IMG/VR virus record: IMGVR_UViG_3300019760_000006
Span: 28,761-92,760 of that record
Source: a virus
DNA: 64,000 nucleotides
Reading direction: 5' to 3' (one strand)
Part shown: in pieces, positions 5,082 to 62,169 of the stretch
Layout of the letters: every line of letters begins with the position of its first letter
How positions within the stretch are numbered: position 1 is the first letter of the stretch
Translations under genes and position numbers: made by a program
Notes under the pieces: generated by a model
Databases searched by the model: none
What the model was told of the DNA's origin: nothing
Seen by the model: the letters and a program-made list of their open reading frames with translations, nothing else

Positions 5082-5155
5082 TGGTGCTCCTGGAGAGAAT
5101 TGAACTCTCATTAATCGCTTATAAGGCAACCGTTCTTCCTTTGAACTACAGGAGC
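5082..5155 (-). tRNA. tRNA-Ile, anticodon UAU (reads AUA)
   Basis: GCTCCTG/CAGGAGC acceptor stem, discriminator A and encoded CCA; anticodon loop CT-TAT-AA; T arm GAGAG-TTCAATT-CTCTC. Confidence 0.9.
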
Positions 5156-45182: not shown

Positions 45183-45622
45183 TGATAGCACATGCAATTA
45201 AAGACGGAAAAGTCGTAAACACCATTGAAGTTGAATCACTTGAGTTTATTACTGGACTTATCGACGCAAGCATGGGTGGTTCAATTGGTGACATGTGGGA
45301 TGGTGAGAAATTTTCAACACCTGAACCTGAACCTAAAACAATCGAGGACAGATTCACAGAGCTGAAAACAGAATTTGAATCATACATTTATGGCCACTAT
45401 GGACCAGCTACACAGATGACTATGATTAAAGCTTATTCTGATGAAGATACTCCTATTGAATTAAAGGCAAAGGCAAAAGAGGTAGGAGATTGGATAAAGA
45501 CAGTACAAACTTACTATAAGAACATAAAAGCTTCCATACTCAGCGGAGCAGTAGAAACAACATGGGATTTTCAGCAATTCGACGCAACCAAACCACAATG
45601 GGATTTTGAGGATTTTGTATGA
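45182..45622 (+). CDS. Tail fibre-associated chaperone
   Basis: AH.IKDG.VVNTI...IG..WDG..F..P; start ATG 45182 overlaps the fibre stop. Confidence 0.6.
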   Translation: MIAHAIKDGKVVNTIEVESLEFITGLIDASMGGSIGDMWDGEKFSTPEPEPKTIEDRFTELKTEFESYIYGHYGPATQMTMIKAYSDEDTPIELKAKAKEVGDWIKTVQTYYKNIKASILSGAVETTWDFQQFDATKPQWDFEDFV

Positions 45623-46113
45623 ATACATGGGATAAAATAAAGCAAATCATTGATAATCAAGATGCAGAAATACAGAGACTAAAAATAGCAGTAAAAGCAG
45701 GTAGCAAAGAACCTGTGACTATTGAGTATGAAAATCCTGTAAGGATAGATGGTTTATGGGATATTGGCGTTCCACTGAATGCAAACTACGCTTTTTCTAC
45801 AGATGATTATTGGTATGGTATTGACAAAGAAGATGTGCAAAAAGTGTTGGATCAACATCAAAATATTAAAGATATGGAGTATAAAGAAAGCTTAACAGAT
45901 TGTGACGATTATGCTCAAGCATTGCATGGTGTTTTTAACCAACATGGACTGTCAAGATTTGCTTTTGGCTATGCATCTTCTGGTGGTCATGCATTTAACT
46001 TCTTTGTTGATCGAAATAAAAAAATATGGATAGTCGAACCACAGACATTTGAAATTCTTGATTATGAAATATGGAAGTATTCAAACTATAAAATTAATAA
46101 ATGGATTATATAA
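45619..46113 (+). CDS. Papain-like cysteine peptidase domain (MOA agglutinin C-terminal-like)
   Basis: DCDDYA...GHAFNFF...VEPQ, a Cys-His-Glu triad pattern. Confidence 0.65.
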   Translation: MNTWDKIKQIIDNQDAEIQRLKIAVKAGSKEPVTIEYENPVRIDGLWDIGVPLNANYAFSTDDYWYGIDKEDVQKVLDQHQNIKDMEYKESLTDCDDYAQALHGVFNQHGLSRFAFGYASSGGHAFNFFVDRNKKIWIVEPQTFEILDYEIWKYSNYKINKWII

Positions 46114-46731
46114 ATGATAATAAAAAAATATTTTATAATAGTATTTTTTATAGTGTCTACATGCAATTCATGTATATTGATGTCAGATAAGTATTATGAA
46201 ACAAAATCTATTGAGTGGCAAGCTAAATCTGATGCAGCTAAAGCATATAATGAGAGTATAGATAATAGATTAGCTGAAATAGACCCGAGAACAGGTGTAA
46301 TAACCTTATATAAGCAGGTTGATCAAAAACCTATGGCAGTGTATGCAGATTCCAATCCCTTCATAGATGGGCTTAAAACAACGCTTAATTCAAGTGCTTT
46401 AAAATTTCTCACTGGTGGGTTGGCATTTAAACTTGCTACAGACAATATGCAAGGTAATACAAGTATGTATCAAGCTGGTGGAGATATGTCAGTTACAAGA
46501 GATAGTGGTAACTCAATAGATTACACATCAACATCTTCTGAAGTTTATGGAGATCAATCCAAAACAAATATCCAAGATTCTTACAACTCTAAGACACTTG
46601 ATAAATCCACTATGACAGATGATCATTCAGTTATGGAGAGTGATAATAGAAGTTATCAGAATAGTTACAATAACGTAACTAATGAGTATGAAAGTAAGGA
46701 AGGAAATACTGGAGTAAATTATGAAGATTGA
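46114..46731 (+). CDS. Putative lipoprotein
   Basis: Signal-like N-terminus ending CNSC; S/T/N/D-rich tail. Confidence 0.6.
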   Translation: MIIKKYFIIVFFIVSTCNSCILMSDKYYETKSIEWQAKSDAAKAYNESIDNRLAEIDPRTGVITLYKQVDQKPMAVYADSNPFIDGLKTTLNSSALKFLTGGLAFKLATDNMQGNTSMYQAGGDMSVTRDSGNSIDYTSTSSEVYGDQSKTNIQDSYNSKTLDKSTMTDDHSVMESDNRSYQNSYNNVTNEYESKEGNTGVNYED

Positions 46732-47053
46732 TAAGAATTGTGTTTTAACTAAAGAGAAACTAAAGAATACTAATGGTTGTGGTAGTTCTTATTGGTTAGC
46801 TCGGCCATTTCGAATACCTGATTGGTTTGGTTGGAAGAGGATTTGAGATAGGCATGATTATAAGTATACTGTAGGTATATCACTAAATGATAAACATGAA
46901 TCAGATGATGAATTGTATAATGCAATGATGTATGATGCTTTTAATAATTCAAACTGGTTCACAAAACCAATTAAGATTAAAGTTGCTGAAATAGCTTATT
47001 GGTGCTTGAATACTAAGTTATCAGAAATTTGTTTCAAGAACGCAAGTTCTTAA
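46721..47053 (+). CDS. Phospholipase A2-like protein with in-frame TGA at the CxxHD cysteine (candidate selenoprotein; not in ORF track)
   Basis: GGAG SD; MKIDKN...NGCGS...RI*DRHDYKY...ESDDELYNAM...; TGA at 46844-46846; frame stays open 68 codons to TAA, then a terminator. Confidence 0.7.
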
Positions 47054-47086
47054 CATTTAAAAAAGCAACAAAAAGCAATTAATAAG

Positions 47087-47126
47087 AATGCCCATAGATA
47101 AATTAATATCTATGGGCATTTGTTAT
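47087..47126. terminator. Terminator between convergent units
   Basis: Perfect 14-bp stem AATGCCCATAGATA/TATCTATGGGCATT with T-rich flanks. Confidence 0.8.
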
Positions 47127-49019
47127 TTAATAAGTTATATTAAACTTTGAATCATTTTTTCTTTCAATTAATTTAACTTTATAATCTTCACAAAAAGGTT
47201 CACTCCAACCGTCATAATGCTCTGAGTTTATCAACACAACACTCCCGTTATAACATTTAATAACCTCTTCTCCAATACATTGTGGTCCTTTTACAATTCT
47301 CCCTTTATCTCCAGCCTTCATTTCCCGGAAAGTAATAACTTTCATTTCATTAAAAGCTATTTTTGATTTACTCTCATGAAAAATTTTATAAACTCTCTCC
47401 CATTCCTTATTTAAATTATCCCACTTTTCTATATCATTAAACGGCCACTGGAATGTACCACTGATAAACATTGTATTTTTAAATTGTAAATATAAAAATC
47501 TGAGTCTATTGTCAACACTTCCATCTTTTCCTTCTACCAATTCATAAAAACTATCATAACAATTGTTAACTTTTAAAACCTGTTTAAATAAATCTATAAT
47601 TTCATCAGCTTCTTTAATTTTATCATAGATATCCTCACCAAATACTCTTTTAAAACAGGTTCTATTCCAAGTGTATTCATCACCATCCTCTTCATTATTT
47701 GATGTTGTCGACCAACCAGAACCACTCTTAGGAGATCTTTTGAATTTATATGATTTGTCAGTTGTGAAACTATCATAAAAATCATTTATAGCTTTGAAGT
47801 AATAAAGCTCATCAATAGGTTTTTCTTCCTTCTGCTCCTCATAAATTTCTTCTGCTAATTCATCATATGCTTGCTCACACCAATTTCCTTCACACATAAA
47901 TGTTGATGTAATAGCATAATCTGTTTTAAGAATGTTCATAAGACAATATTTACAGACATCTTCTTCAGCAAGAGATTCTTTAATTTGATTGATTTCACCT
48001 TCATACTTCTTTGTTTCTTTATACTTATCTATAATTTCTTCATAGTCTCCAATACAAAAACACTTTGTACAATGTTCATCATCAAAATAAATAGTATCTG
48101 GTAGATAGCCAACTATCTGGTATTCGTCAAACCAAATGTTTGTTATTTCACCAGACATACTGTTCAAACCGTTCTTATTTGAATATTTTATAGAACTCCC
48201 ATTTACCAATTTAATAACATTTTCTTTTGTTTTTGATTTCCCTTCCTGTAATTTAATAAACTGTTCAACAAATTTATCAACTTCATACTCTTCATTAAAA
48301 ATACAATTAATGTTACCAGTTACTTTGTACTCTGGTCCACAGCCAAATTCATCCTCTATAACAAAAGAAATATCACATTTATTTTTTGGTTTCTTAGTAG
48401 AAGGTTTCTTAACAGAATGTTTATCAACAGAAGGTTTATCAGGCATTGACGTCTTATAAGTCAACCAAGCTTCATGAAAAGCCCAAGGAACTGGATCACC
48501 ATGCAAATACCAACTATTATCTATATAAGGTGACTTACTCTCCAACACAAAGCTTCTACCAATGAAATTGTCCATAGCATTCACCCAACAAAGTCTGATA
48601 TTATTCTCATTAGCATCACTTCTAACATACATTTTCATTCCAGGTTTTAGAATAGGTTCCCAATATTTAAAATTATTGTCATCTTCATCACAGTAGGACT
48701 CATAAACACCTGCATTCTTACGCTCTGTGACACAACCAAGCCCACTCCCATTATTTTCACTACACCAACGGCAAGTTTCACAACTCTTCTTAATAGGGAT
48801 ACCAATTTGTTTGATATAACTAAGTACGAGGGGGAATCTCCCTGACTCAATTGTAACCACCTCAACATAAAGACCAGGATTATTTTCTACATAAATCAGA
48901 GTCTCTTCAAATGCTTGTGTTCTGATTATAGTTCCTTTTTTCAACATACCCAAATGTTCTTTATTATCTTTATCAAATTCATACCAAATCACAACATTGT
49001 TTTCATTGTTCTCTTTCAT
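47127..49019 (-). CDS. Large mosaic hypothetical protein
   Basis: Probable start ATG 49019 (MKENNE) behind GAGGAG; Cys clusters; own promoter. Confidence 0.75.
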   Translation of the reverse strand: MKENNENNVVIWYEFDKDNKEHLGMLKKGTIIRTQAFEETLIYVENNPGLYVEVVTIESGRFPLVLSYIKQIGIPIKKSCETCRWCSENNGSGLGCVTERKNAGVYESYCDEDDNNFKYWEPILKPGMKMYVRSDANENNIRLCWVNAMDNFIGRSFVLESKSPYIDNSWYLHGDPVPWAFHEAWLTYKTSMPDKPSVDKHSVKKPSTKKPKNKCDISFVIEDEFGCGPEYKVTGNINCIFNEEYEVDKFVEQFIKLQEGKSKTKENVIKLVNGSSIKYSNKNGLNSMSGEITNIWFDEYQIVGYLPDTIYFDDEHCTKCFCIGDYEEIIDKYKETKKYEGEINQIKESLAEEDVCKYCLMNILKTDYAITSTFMCEGNWCEQAYDELAEEIYEEQKEEKPIDELYYFKAINDFYDSFTTDKSYKFKRSPKSGSGWSTTSNNEEDGDEYTWNRTCFKRVFGEDIYDKIKEADEIIDLFKQVLKVNNCYDSFYELVEGKDGSVDNRLRFLYLQFKNTMFISGTFQWPFNDIEKWDNLNKEWERVYKIFHESKSKIAFNEMKVITFREMKAGDKGRIVKGPQCIGEEVIKCYNGSVVLINSEHYDGWSEPFCEDYKVKLIERKNDSKFNITY

Positions 49020-59140: not shown

Positions 59141-61470
59141 ATGAAAATTTACATTATTATGAAAGTCAGAAGGGATATCTCTTCTGTTTACAAAGCTTTC
59201 TACCTGAAAGAAGAGGCTAACGGTTGGTTATATAGTAATATAAACAGATTTCTGCATGACTCTAATGGAGAGGAGGTTAAACATAAATGGGGGTATTGGT
59301 TCGATAAAACAAATAAGTGTTGCCATGTAAACGCTATAATGTATGAGATTCAGAAGCGAGTCCCAGACCACACAATACTGGATTCTTACTATATTGAAGA
59401 AATAGAGGTTAATTAATGACTTTAAAAACTAATGTTTATAAAGAATTTGCAAAACTAATTGCAAAAGATTTAATTATATGTCTAAAGTGGATTTCTATTA
59501 TGGCTATATTGTATATCATATGGTTGATTACATATAATAAGCTTCTTTTAATAAACCCAACTTGTGGTCCAATCATAGCAGGAGGCACTGCCCTTAATGG
59601 ACCAATATTTGGTGGGATAATTATGTTTCTTATTTATTCTTATCTAAAAGATAGGTGGATAAAAGCATATAATAATAAAAAGATGGGGAATAAATAAATA
59701 AAATGTCTGGTTTTAAAAAATATACCACAAAAGAATTACAAGAATTAAATATGATTCTTGTTAAATGTGATTGTTATTTTATTGGTTTTGATGGTAATAG
59801 ATTGCCATCATTTATCTATAAGCAGGTATTGTTTGACAATTTTAGTCAAGCTAAAGATTGGTACTTGGATGAGATTACAAGAAAGATAGAGGATTTTGGT
59901 GTTAGTTTTCACTTGACATTCACATCAGAAGATTGTATAAAGTTTGAATTGTATAATTTAACAACATTGAAAGTTGTTGGTGAAGGGAGTGTAGAGAGAG
60001 TTTATGTAGATTAGTATCAAAATAATTAATAATAGAAATAAGAATAAAAGGAGGCAGGTATGGAGGATTTAGATTTTAGAGTTGGCGATAAAGTATATGA
60101 TTTTATTGAAGGTAATGGTGTGGTGGCACCATGTACAGATGAACTTTACCCAATAAAAGTAATTTATGAAAGTGGTGAGTTTAATAATTTTACAAAGGAT
60201 GGAAAATTATGGCTAAATGAAAAAAGAACTCTTTTTCATGGTCATAATATAGAAGTCATTATTAAAGAAGAAATGCCTATTCGAACTAAGATTAAATGGG
60301 TTTTTGTATACCTTACGAAAAATGGTAGTGCTACCTGCTCTGGTTTTTATGATACAAAAGAAGAGTGTCAACAGGGTTGTACAGATTGTTCAATGAACTA
60401 TAAGATATTGATTGATACCCATGAAGTTGAAATATAATTATAAAAGTAGGTTTATATAAATTAAATGAGGATTGAAACATGAAAATAATTGATGTTTCTG
60501 TAAATAGTGATAAGTATCGGGTTGTATTAGACGATAAAACTGGGTTTAAGTGTTATAGATATGGAGAAGAATGGAAAGATATTGTTGGTGATAATTTAAT
60601 TTATTGGTTAGCTGCTGAACTTCAGGAAGCAAGAGATAGAATAAATACTGCTGTAAAAAGTCTTGAAGTTGTCTTAAACGGTAGTTTAGAAGATGACAGA
60701 GAGGTTTATCTGTTAAATAATTTATTTGAAACCTTATCGTATGGAGAGAATAAATAAAATGCTTAAAATTAAAATGAAATATCAAGTTGAATCATCACTT
60801 GATAATTCGAACATAAAAATATTTACACTTACTAATAAAGAGGTGGCGGGTCATTTGGTAGGTAAAGATGTCTTGGTTTGGGAAAGGGATAGATGGATTT
60901 CAGTGCAACTTGTTGATATTAGGGATTATTTTAAGGTTAGTGGGTTTCCATTTGCTTATGACTTTATAGGAGAGACTCCTGAACAAAAGTTTGAATATAA
61001 AGAGTTGTTTATGCCTGAAAATGTAGATTACCACTGCATCCCGGAAAAGTGTGAATGCTACAGAGATACAATAAAATGTATCAATTGCGTATATGCCCAA
61101 CAAGAGAATTATGAACTTTACAGAAGATGTCTTTTGACAGACAAAAAGTATAAAGATTATAAGATAATTAGTGTAGAAGAGTGTGAATGAAGATAGAGAG
61201 GTTAGATGAATGATGCAAAAAGATATTATTATTGGTGAGAAGTATTATGTTAAAGGTAAAGGTCATTCTATTTTGAATAACAGACCAGGCTATTTTAAAA
61301 GTGAACAGATATTTATTCCAAAGAGGGTTGACAGGAGAAGAGGTAGGAAAGGTGGTTATAGGTATTTCATGGATGATGGTAAGATTTATTTAAAAGCTGG
61401 CGATATTGTTCCTTTTAAATGTTCTGAGATGAATTGTAAAGAGTGTAAGAGGATGGGGTTTACGAGGTGA
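59141..61470 (+). other. String of seven small hypothetical ORFs (59141, 59416, 59703, 60060, 60479, about 60759, 61210)
   Basis: SD-led and co-oriented; 59416 has two TM helices. Confidence 0.6.
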
Positions 61471-61491
61471 TTTAGGAGAGGAGGTTTTGTT

Positions 61492-62169
61492 TTGAGTAGG
61501 AAAATAAATGTAAAAAAGAGACAAAGATTTAATAGATGGGTTGTGATAAAGGAGGTTAAACAAAAATGTAATCAAAGAAGATTCTTGTGTAGATGTGATT
61601 GTGGTACAGTAAGGGAGACTCCGTTAGGACACTTAGTTAATGGAAGTTCTAAATCTTGTGGTTGTTACCACAAAGAGATTGCAACACAAAGTTCTTCCAC
61701 ACACAAAAAATCAAAAACTAAAATATATAAATTATATCACGGGATCAAAAAAAGATGTTATAATGAAAATACAGTCGGATTTGAATACTGGGGCGGGAAA
61801 GGTATTAAGATGTGTGATAAATGGCTAAGTGATTTTGAGATTTTTGAAACTTGGGCATTGAATAATGGATATGAAGAAGGACTTTCTATTGAAAGATTAA
61901 ATAATGAGGAGGATTATTGTCCTGAAAATTGTATTTTTATACCGAGAAATGAGCAACCATTAAATCAAACAAAGAGGAAGGATAATACCTCAGGTTACAC
62001 TGGAGTGTATGTACGAGGTAAAGATAAAGATATCTACTACGCTATGATAAATTTTAATAAGATAAACAACAATCTTGGTACTTTCAGTAGTAAAAGAAAA
62101 GCTGTTATGGCAAGAAATTATTTTATTATTAATAATAATCTCCCACATAAGCTACAGGTGTTGAAATGA
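61492..62169 (+). CDS. Free-standing HNH-type endonuclease with AP2-like C-terminus
   Basis: CRCDCG, SCGC, KRCYN, GGKGI, SIERLNN..DYCPENC, NTSGYTGV. Confidence 0.85.
   Translation: MSRKINVKKRQRFNRWVVIKEVKQKCNQRRFLCRCDCGTVRETPLGHLVNGSSKSCGCYHKEIATQSSSTHKKSKTKIYKLYHGIKKRCYNENTVGFEYWGGKGIKMCDKWLSDFEIFETWALNNGYEEGLSIERLNNEEDYCPENCIFIPRNEQPLNQTKRKDNTSGYTGVYVRGKDKDIYYAMINFNKINNNLGTFSSKRKAVMARNYFIINNNLPHKLQVLK

What the first reader, a model, noticed from the sequence alone, without database searches (positions are those of the whole stretch)
46721..47053. Candidate phage selenoprotein: PLA2-like gene whose CxxHD cysteine is TGA, followed by a SECIS-like hairpin
Seen: an SD-led ATG (46721) opens MKIDKNCVLTKEKLKNTNGCGSSYWLARPFRIPDWFGWKRI*DRHDYKYTVGISLNDKHESDDELYNAMMYDAF...NASS. 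There is one TGA (46844-46846), and the frame then stays open for 68 codons in AT-rich DNA, ending just before the operon terminator. Established: NGCG...CxxHDxxY...D is the PLA2-like signature, and the TGA sits exactly at the Cys of CxxHD; Cys/UGA correspondence is the hallmark of selenocysteine. Seen: GTATAC-TGTAG-GTATAT (46864-46880) gives an apical loop with GU 25-26 nt after the UGA, with a possible lower stem CATG-ATTAT/ATGAT-AAA-CATG. This fits the loose bacterial SECIS geometry. Inference: the phage borrows host SelB/tRNA-Sec (or SECIS-directed Cys insertion), which could make a membrane-attacking enzyme depend on selenium or recoding. A one-base nonsense change from TGT/TGC or a sequencing error is a fully viable alternative.
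Basis: partly seen in the sequence, partly recalled or inferred. Interest (0 to 1): 0.85.

Follow-up and report, generated by a model that had tools for sequence, protein, structure and literature searches.

The report
Phage lysis phospholipase with probable selenocysteine codon
A small phospholipase-A2-like gene at the end of this uncultured phage's late operon has a real internal UGA at an invariant disulfide cysteine, followed by a hairpin at the same spacing as in distant phage relatives with the same UGA, so it is probably read as selenocysteine, which I found reported for no bacteriophage.

Summary
ORF 46721-47053 (+) has one in-frame TGA (46844-46846) and 68 more open codons. Contigs from three microbial-mat samples carry the same TGA, so it is not a one-off sequencing error.

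The read-through protein belongs to a phage PLA2-like family (NGCG...CxxHD...D). Its model's best structural match is a fungal secreted PLA2 (Z 9.8). The TGA lies at one of 8 invariant columns, and all 33 close relatives have Cys (TGT/TGC where DNA was read).

My first tests argued against a SECIS (folding energy no better than shuffles, no Rfam hit). Wider scans changed that:
- Two phage lineages only 20-22% identical (L031/L040, L097) have TGA at the same column. A third (L226) has it at the other invariant Cys, the likely disulfide partner.
- 77 Cys-form genes (5714 codons) have no internal stop.
- Nine short gene calls in the protein database end exactly before this Cys.
- All four TGA forms have a hairpin whose loop starts 23-27 nt from the UGA, against about 3% of Cys-form controls. 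The hairpin moves with the TGA.

The window's hairpin meets three of four published bacterial SECIS constraints. Selenocysteine is the best reading (about 0.55). A leaky or dead nonsense allele remains viable. The host and its Sec genes are unknown. Earlier notes of this scan reported UGA-bearing PLA2-like phage genes on other DNA.

The parts
46721..47053 (+). PLA2-like gene. It gives 110 residues if TGA is read through: 41 codons, the TGA, 68 codons, then TAA at 47051-47053.
   Evidence: sequence and ORF. Homologues 46-57% identical across both sides of the TGA. PLA2 fold.
46711..46714 (+). Shine-Dalgarno GGAG, 6 nt before the ATG. The start overlaps the upstream gene's stop (46729-46731), which suggests translational coupling.
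   Evidence: sequence; ORF table.
46844..46846 (+). In-frame TGA at the invariant Cys, 3 residues before the catalytic His of CxxHD. Candidate Sec codon.
   Evidence: alignment. (three samples show TGA). (13 homologous loci have TGT or TGC).
46864..46880 (+). Apical hairpin: 7 bp (46864-46870 pairs with 46874-46880) with loop GUA (46871-46873). There are 24 nt between the UGA and the loop. Candidate SelB-binding part of a bacterial-type SECIS.
   Evidence: Hairpins at the same spacing in L031, L097 and L226, but in about 3% of Cys-form controls.
46847..46902 (+). Whole predicted stem-loop including the weak lower stems (CAUG/AUUA pairings). Total -6.7 kcal/mol.
46114..46731 (+). Upstream gene. 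Predicted lipoprotein: N-terminal signal ending in a lipobox-like ...IVSTC.
   Evidence: translation. No Pfam or PHROG match. A relative lies upstream of the PLA2-like gene in L015.
45619..46113 (+). Upstream gene with faint papain-fold matches. Possible peptidase-type endolysin.
   Evidence: PF15644 E 0.018, below threshold. Inference only.
47086..47121 (.). Bidirectional intrinsic terminator that closes the late operon.

Best explanation
The gene encodes a small secreted-PLA2-like lipid hydrolase. It is made late, at the end of the tail and lysis operon, and probably attacks host membrane lipid during lysis or entry. Its codon 42 is UGA at the invariant Cys that, in secreted PLA2s, forms the disulfide tying the Ca2+-binding loop (here N-G-C20-G) to the catalytic helix (C42-x-x-H45-D46).

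Proposed mechanism: the host's SelB with Sec-tRNA(Sec) binds the hairpin 24 nt downstream (46864-46880) and inserts selenocysteine. The full 110-residue enzyme would then carry a selenylsulfide in place of that disulfide.

Shown here:
- The TGA is real.
- It sits at an invariant Cys column.
- The downstream coding sequence is intact and conserved.
- UGA recurs at the two invariant Cys columns of the superfamily.
- A hairpin at fixed spacing accompanies the UGA in each case.

Inferred, not shown: Sec insertion itself, dependence on a Sec-competent host, the disulfide role of C20/C42, and a role in lysis.
For: 1. Real allele. Contigs from three samples carry TGA with no differences. The 41-aa fragment is on 3 contigs.

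2. Cys column. C42 is one of 8 invariant columns in 21 sequences. 13 homologous loci have TGT (9) or TGC (4).

3. Coding continues. All family-invariant residues after the TGA are kept (H45, D46, K58, D62).

4. Recurrence. Exhaustive IMG/VR pattern scans plus an HMM filter found TGA at the same column in L031=L040 (two samples) and in L097. Both are only 20-22% identical to the window. A scan for TGA at the other invariant Cys found L226.

5. Site specificity. 77 distinct Cys-form genes, 5714 codons, have 0 internal stops. Among short gene calls in the 5.8-billion-protein set, nine end exactly before this Cys (P0020, 22, 23, 25, 26, 29, 33, 42, 49), several on contigs of 15-92 kb. About six end elsewhere.

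6. Hairpin coupled to the UGA. The loop starts 23-27 nt from the U of UGA in 4 of 4 TGA forms. That compares with 2.6% of Cys-form controls at either column and 4.6% of this phage's in-frame codons. The result holds across stem, loop and energy settings. Random triples of controls share a hairpin position in 0.4% of draws. The stems differ in sequence.

7. Published bSECIS constraints (PMC13188914). The window meets loop 3-9 nt with stem 4-16 bp, G in the first two loop positions (GUA), and spacing 16-37 nt (24 nt).

8. [quoted passage not shown] This is met at superfamily level.

9. The secreted-PLA2 Cys29-Cys45 disulfide links the Ca2+ loop to the His48 helix (PMC10893444). TGA occurs at both equivalent columns.
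Against: - The window's structure is weak. The hairpin is -3.0 kcal/mol and the whole fold is -6.7, which misses the bSECIS cut-off of -7.5. The fold is no better than shuffles or genome background.
- No Rfam SECIS match.
- Within the close subfamily (about 30 sequences) the window is the only TGA form.
- Two of the four TGA forms (L097, L226) lack a G in the first two loop positions.
- The hairpin criteria were set after seeing the first cases, so the p-values are indicative only.
- The host is unknown, so Sec machinery is untested. The phage has no tRNA-Sec.
- Sec is normally found in redox-active sites, not in structural disulfides.
- A random nonsense hit would fall on a Cys codon in 8% of cases.
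Confidence: 0.55

Rival explanations
1. Plain nonsense allele. A TGT/TGC to TGA change has inactivated an accessory lysis gene in this phage population, and the downstream frame is intact only because the change is recent.
For: - It needs only one base change.
- The window is the only TGA form in its close subfamily.
- The hairpin is weak and common-looking in this AT-rich genome.
- Another contig (L020) holds a truncated remnant of a family gene, so the gene can decay.
- 8% of random nonsense hits in this gene would land on a Cys codon.
Against: - Stops in the superfamily are confined to the two invariant Cys columns. There are 0 in 5714 other codons, and nine database fragments end exactly at this column.
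- The same UGA recurs in lineages 20-22% identical.
- A hairpin at fixed spacing accompanies every UGA but only about 3% of controls.
- All conserved residues downstream are kept.
- The allele is present in three samples.
Confidence: 0.22
2. Leaky UGA without selenium. Near-cognate tRNA-Cys or tRNA-Trp, or Cys carried on tRNA-Sec, reads the UGA at low efficiency. This would give a small, possibly useful dose of a membrane-damaging enzyme.
For: - It explains why TGA is tolerated at Cys codons but at no other codon. Only there can misreading by tRNA-Cys restore the wild-type protein.
- It needs no strong SECIS, which fits the weak fold.
- Established knowledge: UGA is the leakiest bacterial stop codon.
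Against: - It does not by itself explain a hairpin that tracks the UGA at 23-27 nt in four independent lineages.
- I know of no hairpin-stimulated UGA read-through system in bacteria other than SelB with a SECIS.
- The base after the stop is G, which is not the leakiest context (own knowledge).
Confidence: 0.17
3. The host reads TGA as a sense codon (code 4 or 25), or the phage recodes stops late in infection.
For: AT-rich phage from a microbial mat, a habitat where code-25 bacteria occur (own knowledge).
Against: - Genes of 2432 and 1447 codons are open under code 11, and genes are tightly packed.
- TGA ends 35 of 140 long frames.
- All five Trp codons in this gene are TGG.
- The TGA aligns with Cys, not Trp or Gly.
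- There is no suppressor tRNA, only tRNA-Ile(UAU).
Confidence: 0.02
4. Sequencing or assembly error.
For: None beyond the prior.
Against: Independent assemblies of three samples agree at every base across the TGA. Three contigs encode the same 41-aa fragment.
Confidence: 0.01

Closest known systems
Bacterial selenoprotein genes with an in-ORF SECIS read by SelB (prototype E. coli fdhF; consensus model reviewed in PMC13188914)
   Same: - In-frame UGA at a column where homologues have Cys.
- Coding continues after the UGA.
- A stem-loop follows directly, with a small apical loop starting with G-U, 24 nt after the UGA (allowed range 16-37).
   Different: - The gene is carried by a phage. That review does not mention phages or viruses at all, and my literature search found no natural phage selenoprotein.
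- The fold is weaker than the -7.5 kcal/mol cut-off.
- The residue is a structural disulfide Cys, not a redox-active one.
- The machinery would have to be borrowed from an unknown host.
Microbial secreted phospholipases A2 (Tuber borchii 4AUP, Streptomyces violaceoruber 1FAZ; groups XIII/XIV)
   Same: - All-helical fold: Z 9.8, rmsd 2.6 A over 94 residues to 4aup_B. The Foldseek top four hits are all microbial PLA2s.
- The C-x-x-H-D-x-x-Y motif and a later Asp align.
   Different: - Sequence similarity is only marginal (E 0.02-0.3).
- The protein itself has no Pfam match.
- It has an N-G-C-G loop like animal secreted PLA2s.
- It has no signal peptide.
- It is phage-encoded in a late or lysis operon.
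Animal secreted PLA2 Cys29-Cys45 disulfide (PMC10893444)
   Same: Cys in the Ca2+ loop (x-C-G) and Cys 3 residues before the catalytic His. These are the only two invariant cysteines of the phage family, and they are the two columns where TGA is found.
   Different: The pairing in the phage protein is inferred from homology. It was not measured in the model.
Phage and parvovirus PLA2 domains (Vibrio phage 1.097.O 'phospholipase A2 domain protein'; densovirus and parvovirus VP1)
   Same: Best structural matches among viral proteins, and the only tblastn hit among GenBank phages.
   Different: These have Cys, and no UGA form is described for them. The parvovirus domain is part of the capsid protein and acts in entry.
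UGA-bearing PLA2-like phage genes noted earlier in this scan (e1-5948320, e1-6022042, e1-3301986)
   Same: Small PLA2-like gene next to lysis genes, UGA at conserved Cys positions, and a hairpin after it. One note reports two Sec codons, which matches TGA at both Cys columns here.
   Different: Other genomes and other subfamilies. Those are AI notes, and I could not inspect their sequences. Here the window's close subfamily otherwise has only Cys forms.

Membership tests
Bacterial-type selenoprotein gene (UGA plus in-ORF SECIS) | In-frame UGA aligned with Cys in homologues, with at least two Cys homologues | tested here: met
   all 33 close relatives and 77 wider relatives have Cys.
Bacterial-type selenoprotein gene (UGA plus in-ORF SECIS) | [quoted passage not shown] | tested here: met
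   The window, L031/L040 and L097 share the column at 20-22% identity. This holds at superfamily level only. The close subfamily has no second TGA form.
Bacterial-type selenoprotein gene (UGA plus in-ORF SECIS) | Conserved coding sequence on both sides of the UGA | tested here: met
   invariant H45, D46, K58 and D62 lie after the TGA. There are 68 open codons, with chance probability 0.004.
Bacterial-type selenoprotein gene (UGA plus in-ORF SECIS) | bSECIS: apical loop 3-9 nt, upper stem 4-16 bp | tested here: met
   7-bp stem with loop GUA, or 6 bp with loop UGUAG.
Bacterial-type selenoprotein gene (UGA plus in-ORF SECIS) | bSECIS: G in one of the first two loop positions, usually followed by G or U | tested here: met
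   Loop G-U-A. Among the other TGA forms, L031 meets this (GUUU). L097 (AUUUA) and L226 (CUUGA) do not.
Bacterial-type selenoprotein gene (UGA plus in-ORF SECIS) | bSECIS: 16-37 nt between the UGA and the apical loop | tested here: met
   24 nt in the window and 20-22 nt in L226, L031 and L097.
Bacterial-type selenoprotein gene (UGA plus in-ORF SECIS) | bSECIS: minimum free energy of -7.5 kcal/mol or lower | tested here: not met
   -6.7 kcal/mol for 60 nt. The hairpin alone is -3.0. L031 gives -8.4.
Bacterial-type selenoprotein gene (UGA plus in-ORF SECIS) | Host with selA, selB, selC and selD | not testable with these tools
   The host is unknown. The phage has no tRNA-Sec. A Desulfamplus MAG that holds a Cys-form relative has a tRNA-Sec, which says nothing about this phage's host.
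Bacterial-type selenoprotein gene (UGA plus in-ORF SECIS) | Selenium actually incorporated at the UGA | not testable with these tools
   Needs labelling or mass spectrometry.
Secreted phospholipase A2 superfamily | Catalytic His-Asp in C-x-x-H-D-x-x-Y, plus a downstream Asp | tested here: met
   U42-D-R-H45-D46-Y-K-Y49 ... D62. These align with the motif of 4aup, 1faz and 1bp2.
Secreted phospholipase A2 superfamily | Glycine-rich Ca2+-binding loop containing a Cys (x-C-G-x-G type) | tested here: met
   N18-G19-C20-G21 is invariant. Ca2+ binding itself was not tested.
Secreted phospholipase A2 superfamily | PLA2 fold | tested here: met
   Model pLDDT 81. 4aup_B gives Z 9.8, and the next hit gives 6.8. 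Foldseek top hits are PLA2s.
Secreted phospholipase A2 superfamily | Match to a curated PLA2 profile above threshold | tested here: not met
   No Pfam or PHROG hit for this protein. 9 of 21 relatives hit PF06951 weakly, best E 7e-5.
Secreted phospholipase A2 superfamily | Phospholipase activity | not testable with these tools
   Needs an enzyme assay.

The most novel reading that the evidence does not exclude
A bacteriophage encodes a selenoprotein. It would be a lysis-associated PLA2-like enzyme in which selenocysteine replaces one cysteine of the structural disulfide that holds the Ca2+ loop to the catalytic helix, giving a selenylsulfide. Insertion would use the host's SelB and tRNA-Sec through a minimal hairpin 24 nt after the UGA. 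The enzyme's supply would then depend on selenium and on a Sec-competent host. The bridge might form and persist in reducing, sulfidic habitats such as mats, where ordinary disulfides are unstable.
Probability: 0.5. Interest if true: 0.85.

Novelty: new variant of a known kind. Interest (0 to 1): 0.72.

Why it matters
Selenocysteine recoding is known in cellular genomes and in a few viruses of animals. A 2026 review of prokaryotic selenoproteomes does not mention phages, and my searches found no natural phage selenoprotein. If it is confirmed:
- Phages exploit the host's Sec machinery.
- The PLA2-like family becomes a new selenoprotein family.
- Sec is used at a structural bridge rather than at a redox centre.
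- Gene callers systematically truncate such phage genes. Nine truncated fragments are already visible in public protein sets.
- Selenium status and host Sec competence become linked to the last step of phage lysis, and this can be tested with simple reporters.

Tried and rejected
- **Whole-region folding energy.** The z-score against shuffles was 0.2, and the fold sits at the genome-background median. I first read this as 'no SECIS'. I now regard the test as insensitive, because the clearer UGA form L031 also scores z 0.55.
- **Rfam.** A scan of 46600-47150 at E up to 10 gave no SECIS family.
- **RNAalifold.** On the three UGA forms it gave only a 4-pair consensus at -0.36 kcal/mol, because the stems are offset by 1-2 nt. 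This is too few sequences for covariation.
- **Profile libraries.** Pfam and PHROGs gave nothing for the protein itself.
- **First viral-contig searches.** The first search and an exact DNA pattern around the TGA found nothing.
- **Database searches beyond IMG/VR.**
  - GenBank phages: only Cys-form hits, in Vibrio phage 1.097.O and a Thiohalocapsa phage.
  - Pattern search of 401 genomes of the phylum of the Desulfamplus MAG: two chance matches and no family member.
- **Other TGA-split genes in this phage.** None was convincing. The TGA at 61468 seems to separate two genes.
- **Alternative genetic code.** Rejected.
- **+1 frameshift at AUU-UGA** behind the SD-like AGAGGA. Rejected because the +1 frame stops after 9 codons and the homology is in frame 0.
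- **Internal restart.** There is no in-frame start with a Shine-Dalgarno site before the catalytic His.
The DNA behind P0001, P0002 and the seven new truncated fragments could therefore not be read.
- **No RNA holder listed** among the sequencing runs.
- **Host.** TerL is 43% identical to rV5/CR9-like phages of enterobacteria, which is not informative for the host.

Full report
**1. What is there**

The window is the last 64 kb of a 92.76-kb IMG/VR virus record with 33% G+C. It carries a capsid gene, a tail tube gene, a 2432-residue tape measure gene and a glycine-rich fibre gene. It comes from microbial-mat metagenomes.

The ORF at 46721 starts 6 nt after GGAG and overlaps the stop of the upstream gene. 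It has one in-frame TGA (46844-46846), then 68 open codons, and ends at TAA 47051-47053. A bidirectional terminator follows at 47086-47121.

**2. The TGA is real**

Logan contigs of three samples (X1, possibly the source, plus X2 and X3) cross the TGA without a single difference. The 41-residue N-terminal product is on record from three contigs. A sequencing error is excluded.

**3. What the gene is**

- The read-through protein has no Pfam or PHROG match.
- It has relatives 46-57% identical over both sides of the TGA in metagenomes, viral contigs and one MAG.
- In a 21-sequence alignment only eight columns are invariant: G19, C20, G21, C42 (the TGA), H45, D46, K58 and D62.
- A profile of the family hits only phospholipases A2 in the PDB, and the C-x-x-H-D-x-x-Y...D motifs align.
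- The AlphaFold model has pLDDT 81. It matches Tuber borchii PLA2 at Z 9.8, with the next hit at 6.8. The Foldseek top four are microbial PLA2s. Among viral models the best matches are phage 'phospholipase A2' proteins and densovirus VP1.
- In secreted PLA2s, Cys29 of the Ca2+ loop is disulfide-bonded to Cys45, three residues before His48 (PMC10893444). C20 and C42 are the equivalent residues, and they are the only invariant cysteines.

Context:
- In the window the gene follows a fibre gene, a gene with faint papain-fold matches, and a predicted lipoprotein.
- In L031 the related gene overlaps the stop of an endolysin gene (phrog_894, E 2e-29).
- In L014 and L016 it closes virion or ejection modules.

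A late, lysis-associated membrane lipase is the most likely role. This is an inference.

**4. First pass on the SECIS idea was negative**

- The 60 nt after the TGA fold no better than shuffles (z 0.2).
- They fold no better than 55% of in-frame positions of this phage.
- A hairpin of 6 bp or more with GU in the loop at 16-37 nt occurs at 22% of codons, and one as stable at 7%.
- Rfam finds nothing.
- The phage has only tRNA-Ile(UAU).
- All 13 close homologous loci have TGT or TGC.
- A random nonsense hit would fall on a Cys codon 8% of the time.

At that stage I rated selenocysteine at a few per cent.

**5. What changed the reading**

Earlier notes of this scan report UGA-bearing PLA2-like phage genes elsewhere. 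I treated them as a lead and tested the idea on independent data.

Exhaustive IMG/VR pattern scans for NGCG, then 54-72 nt, then TGA-x-x-HD returned 84 stretches. An HMM filter kept three of them:
- L031 and L040 are identical, come from two samples, and read RC-TGA-RVHD.
- L097 reads DA-TGA-QPHD.

Both align at the window's column but are only 20-22% identical to the window. The reciprocal scan, with TGA at the GCG cysteine, found L226 (NG-TGA-GPKG...ACNIHD).

It still gave 77 distinct family genes, with no internal stop in 5714 codons.

A search of the 5.8-billion-protein set with N-terminal halves returned short gene calls:
- Nine end exactly at the residue before this Cys: P0020 (the window), P0022 (L097), P0023, P0025, P0026, P0029, P0033, P0042 and P0049. 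Several lie on contigs of 15-92 kb.
- About six end at other places, mostly on contigs of about 550 nt.

Stops in this superfamily are therefore concentrated at the two cysteines of one presumed disulfide. Random decay does not predict that.

**6. The hairpin travels with the UGA**

Each UGA form has a simple hairpin whose loop starts 23-27 nt from the U of UGA:

| Form | Stem | Loop | Energy (kcal/mol) |
|---|---|---|---|
| Window | 7 bp | GUA | -3.0 |
| L031 | 5 bp | GUUU | -3.2 |
| L097 | 5 bp | AUUUA | -4.6 |
| L226 (after the other Cys column) | 7 bp | CUUGA | -6.6 |

The stems share no sequence.

Controls:
- Among the 77 Cys-form genes, 2.6% have such a hairpin at that offset after either column. 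Among this phage's in-frame codons the figure is 4.6%.
- With minimum stems of 4 or 5 bp, all four UGA forms keep the hairpin across the loop and energy settings tested, against 3-17% of controls. With a 6-bp minimum only two of the four qualify. Using the published wide range of 16-37 nt gives 10-57% of controls.
- Random triples of controls share any hairpin position in 0.4% of draws.

The criteria were chosen after seeing the first examples, so these are indications, not exact probabilities. Taking L031 as the discovery case, the window, L097 and L226 are three successful predictions.

**7. Comparison with the known system**

The bacterial SECIS consensus (PMC13188914) asks for four things:
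- A 3-9 nt loop on a 4-16 bp stem.
- A G in the first two loop positions.
- 16-37 nt between the UGA and the loop.
- A minimum free energy of -7.5 kcal/mol or lower.

The window meets the first three (GUA loop, 24 nt) and misses the fourth (-6.7). L031 meets all four. L097 and L226 lack the loop G.

The published rule for calling a new selenoprotein family is at least two different TGA-bearing sequences plus Cys homologues (PMC1976440). This is met at superfamily level.

**8. Verdict**

The best explanation is selenocysteine insertion by host SelB at codon 42, giving a selenylsulfide-bridged PLA2-like lysis enzyme (about 0.55).

Remaining alternatives:
- A recent dead allele (0.22).
- Selenium-independent leaky reading of UGA, tolerated only at Cys codons (0.17).
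- Alternative genetic code (0.02).
- Sequencing error (0.01).

The finding repeats, on new DNA and in a new subfamily, a pattern that this scan has noted before. I found it in no paper.

Noticed in passing
L226:2042-2434 (- strand): This PLA2-like phage gene has TGA at the other invariant Cys (N-G-TGA-G) and Cys at CxxHD. A 7-bp hairpin (-6.6 kcal/mol) has its loop starting 23 nt from the UGA. This suggests that either partner of the presumed disulfide can be Sec.
   Followed up: partly
L031:11230-11906 (identical in L040): Lysis cassette in another phage: a small ORF, an endolysin (phrog_894), then a UGA-bearing PLA2-like gene that starts at the endolysin's stop. All of this lies downstream of tail-spike genes.
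   Followed up: partly
P0038 (44 aa, on a 35.5-kb contig; DNA not seen): This fragment of a family gene ends two residues after the Cys column (...ASCN-stop). Some relatives have a second Cys there (CxCHD). It may mark a further UGA column.
   Followed up: no
L020:273-377: A truncated remnant of a family gene. The homology stops after NGCGSSYWLAFIF, and unrelated sequence follows. The gene can also simply decay.
   Followed up: partly
window 45619-46731: Two genes before the PLA2-like gene are a 164-aa protein with faint papain-fold matches and a 205-aa predicted lipoprotein (MIIKKYFIIVFFIVSTC...). No recognisable endolysin, holin or spanin was seen nearby, so this may be an unusual lysis cassette.
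   Followed up: partly
window 46843-46870: A promoter-like TTGAGA-16 nt-TATACT (10 of 12 matches) overlaps the TGA and the 5' arm of the hairpin. The number of such sites in the region is no more than chance (10 found against 9.3 expected).
   Followed up: no
window 61210-62169: Two ORFs in the same frame are separated by a single TGA (61468-61470). The second has Cys-rich CxC motifs and a TTG start 8 codons later. They are probably two genes. Homology was not checked.
   Followed up: no
L014:4-5643 and L014:6001-6315: A Cys-form family member sits two genes after an N4-like virion RNA polymerase (phrog_2206, E 8e-246). The PLA2-like gene therefore also occurs in N4-like podophages.
   Followed up: no
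G001 (Desulfamplus MAG holding L012 and L013), C33:46209-46302: This MAG has a tRNA-Sec (74 bits, above the Rfam cut-off). It also holds Cys-form PLA2-like genes on short, low-coverage contigs that may be phage DNA.
   Followed up: no
window 5082-5155 (- strand): The only tRNA of the phage is tRNA-Ile with anticodon UAU.
   Followed up: no
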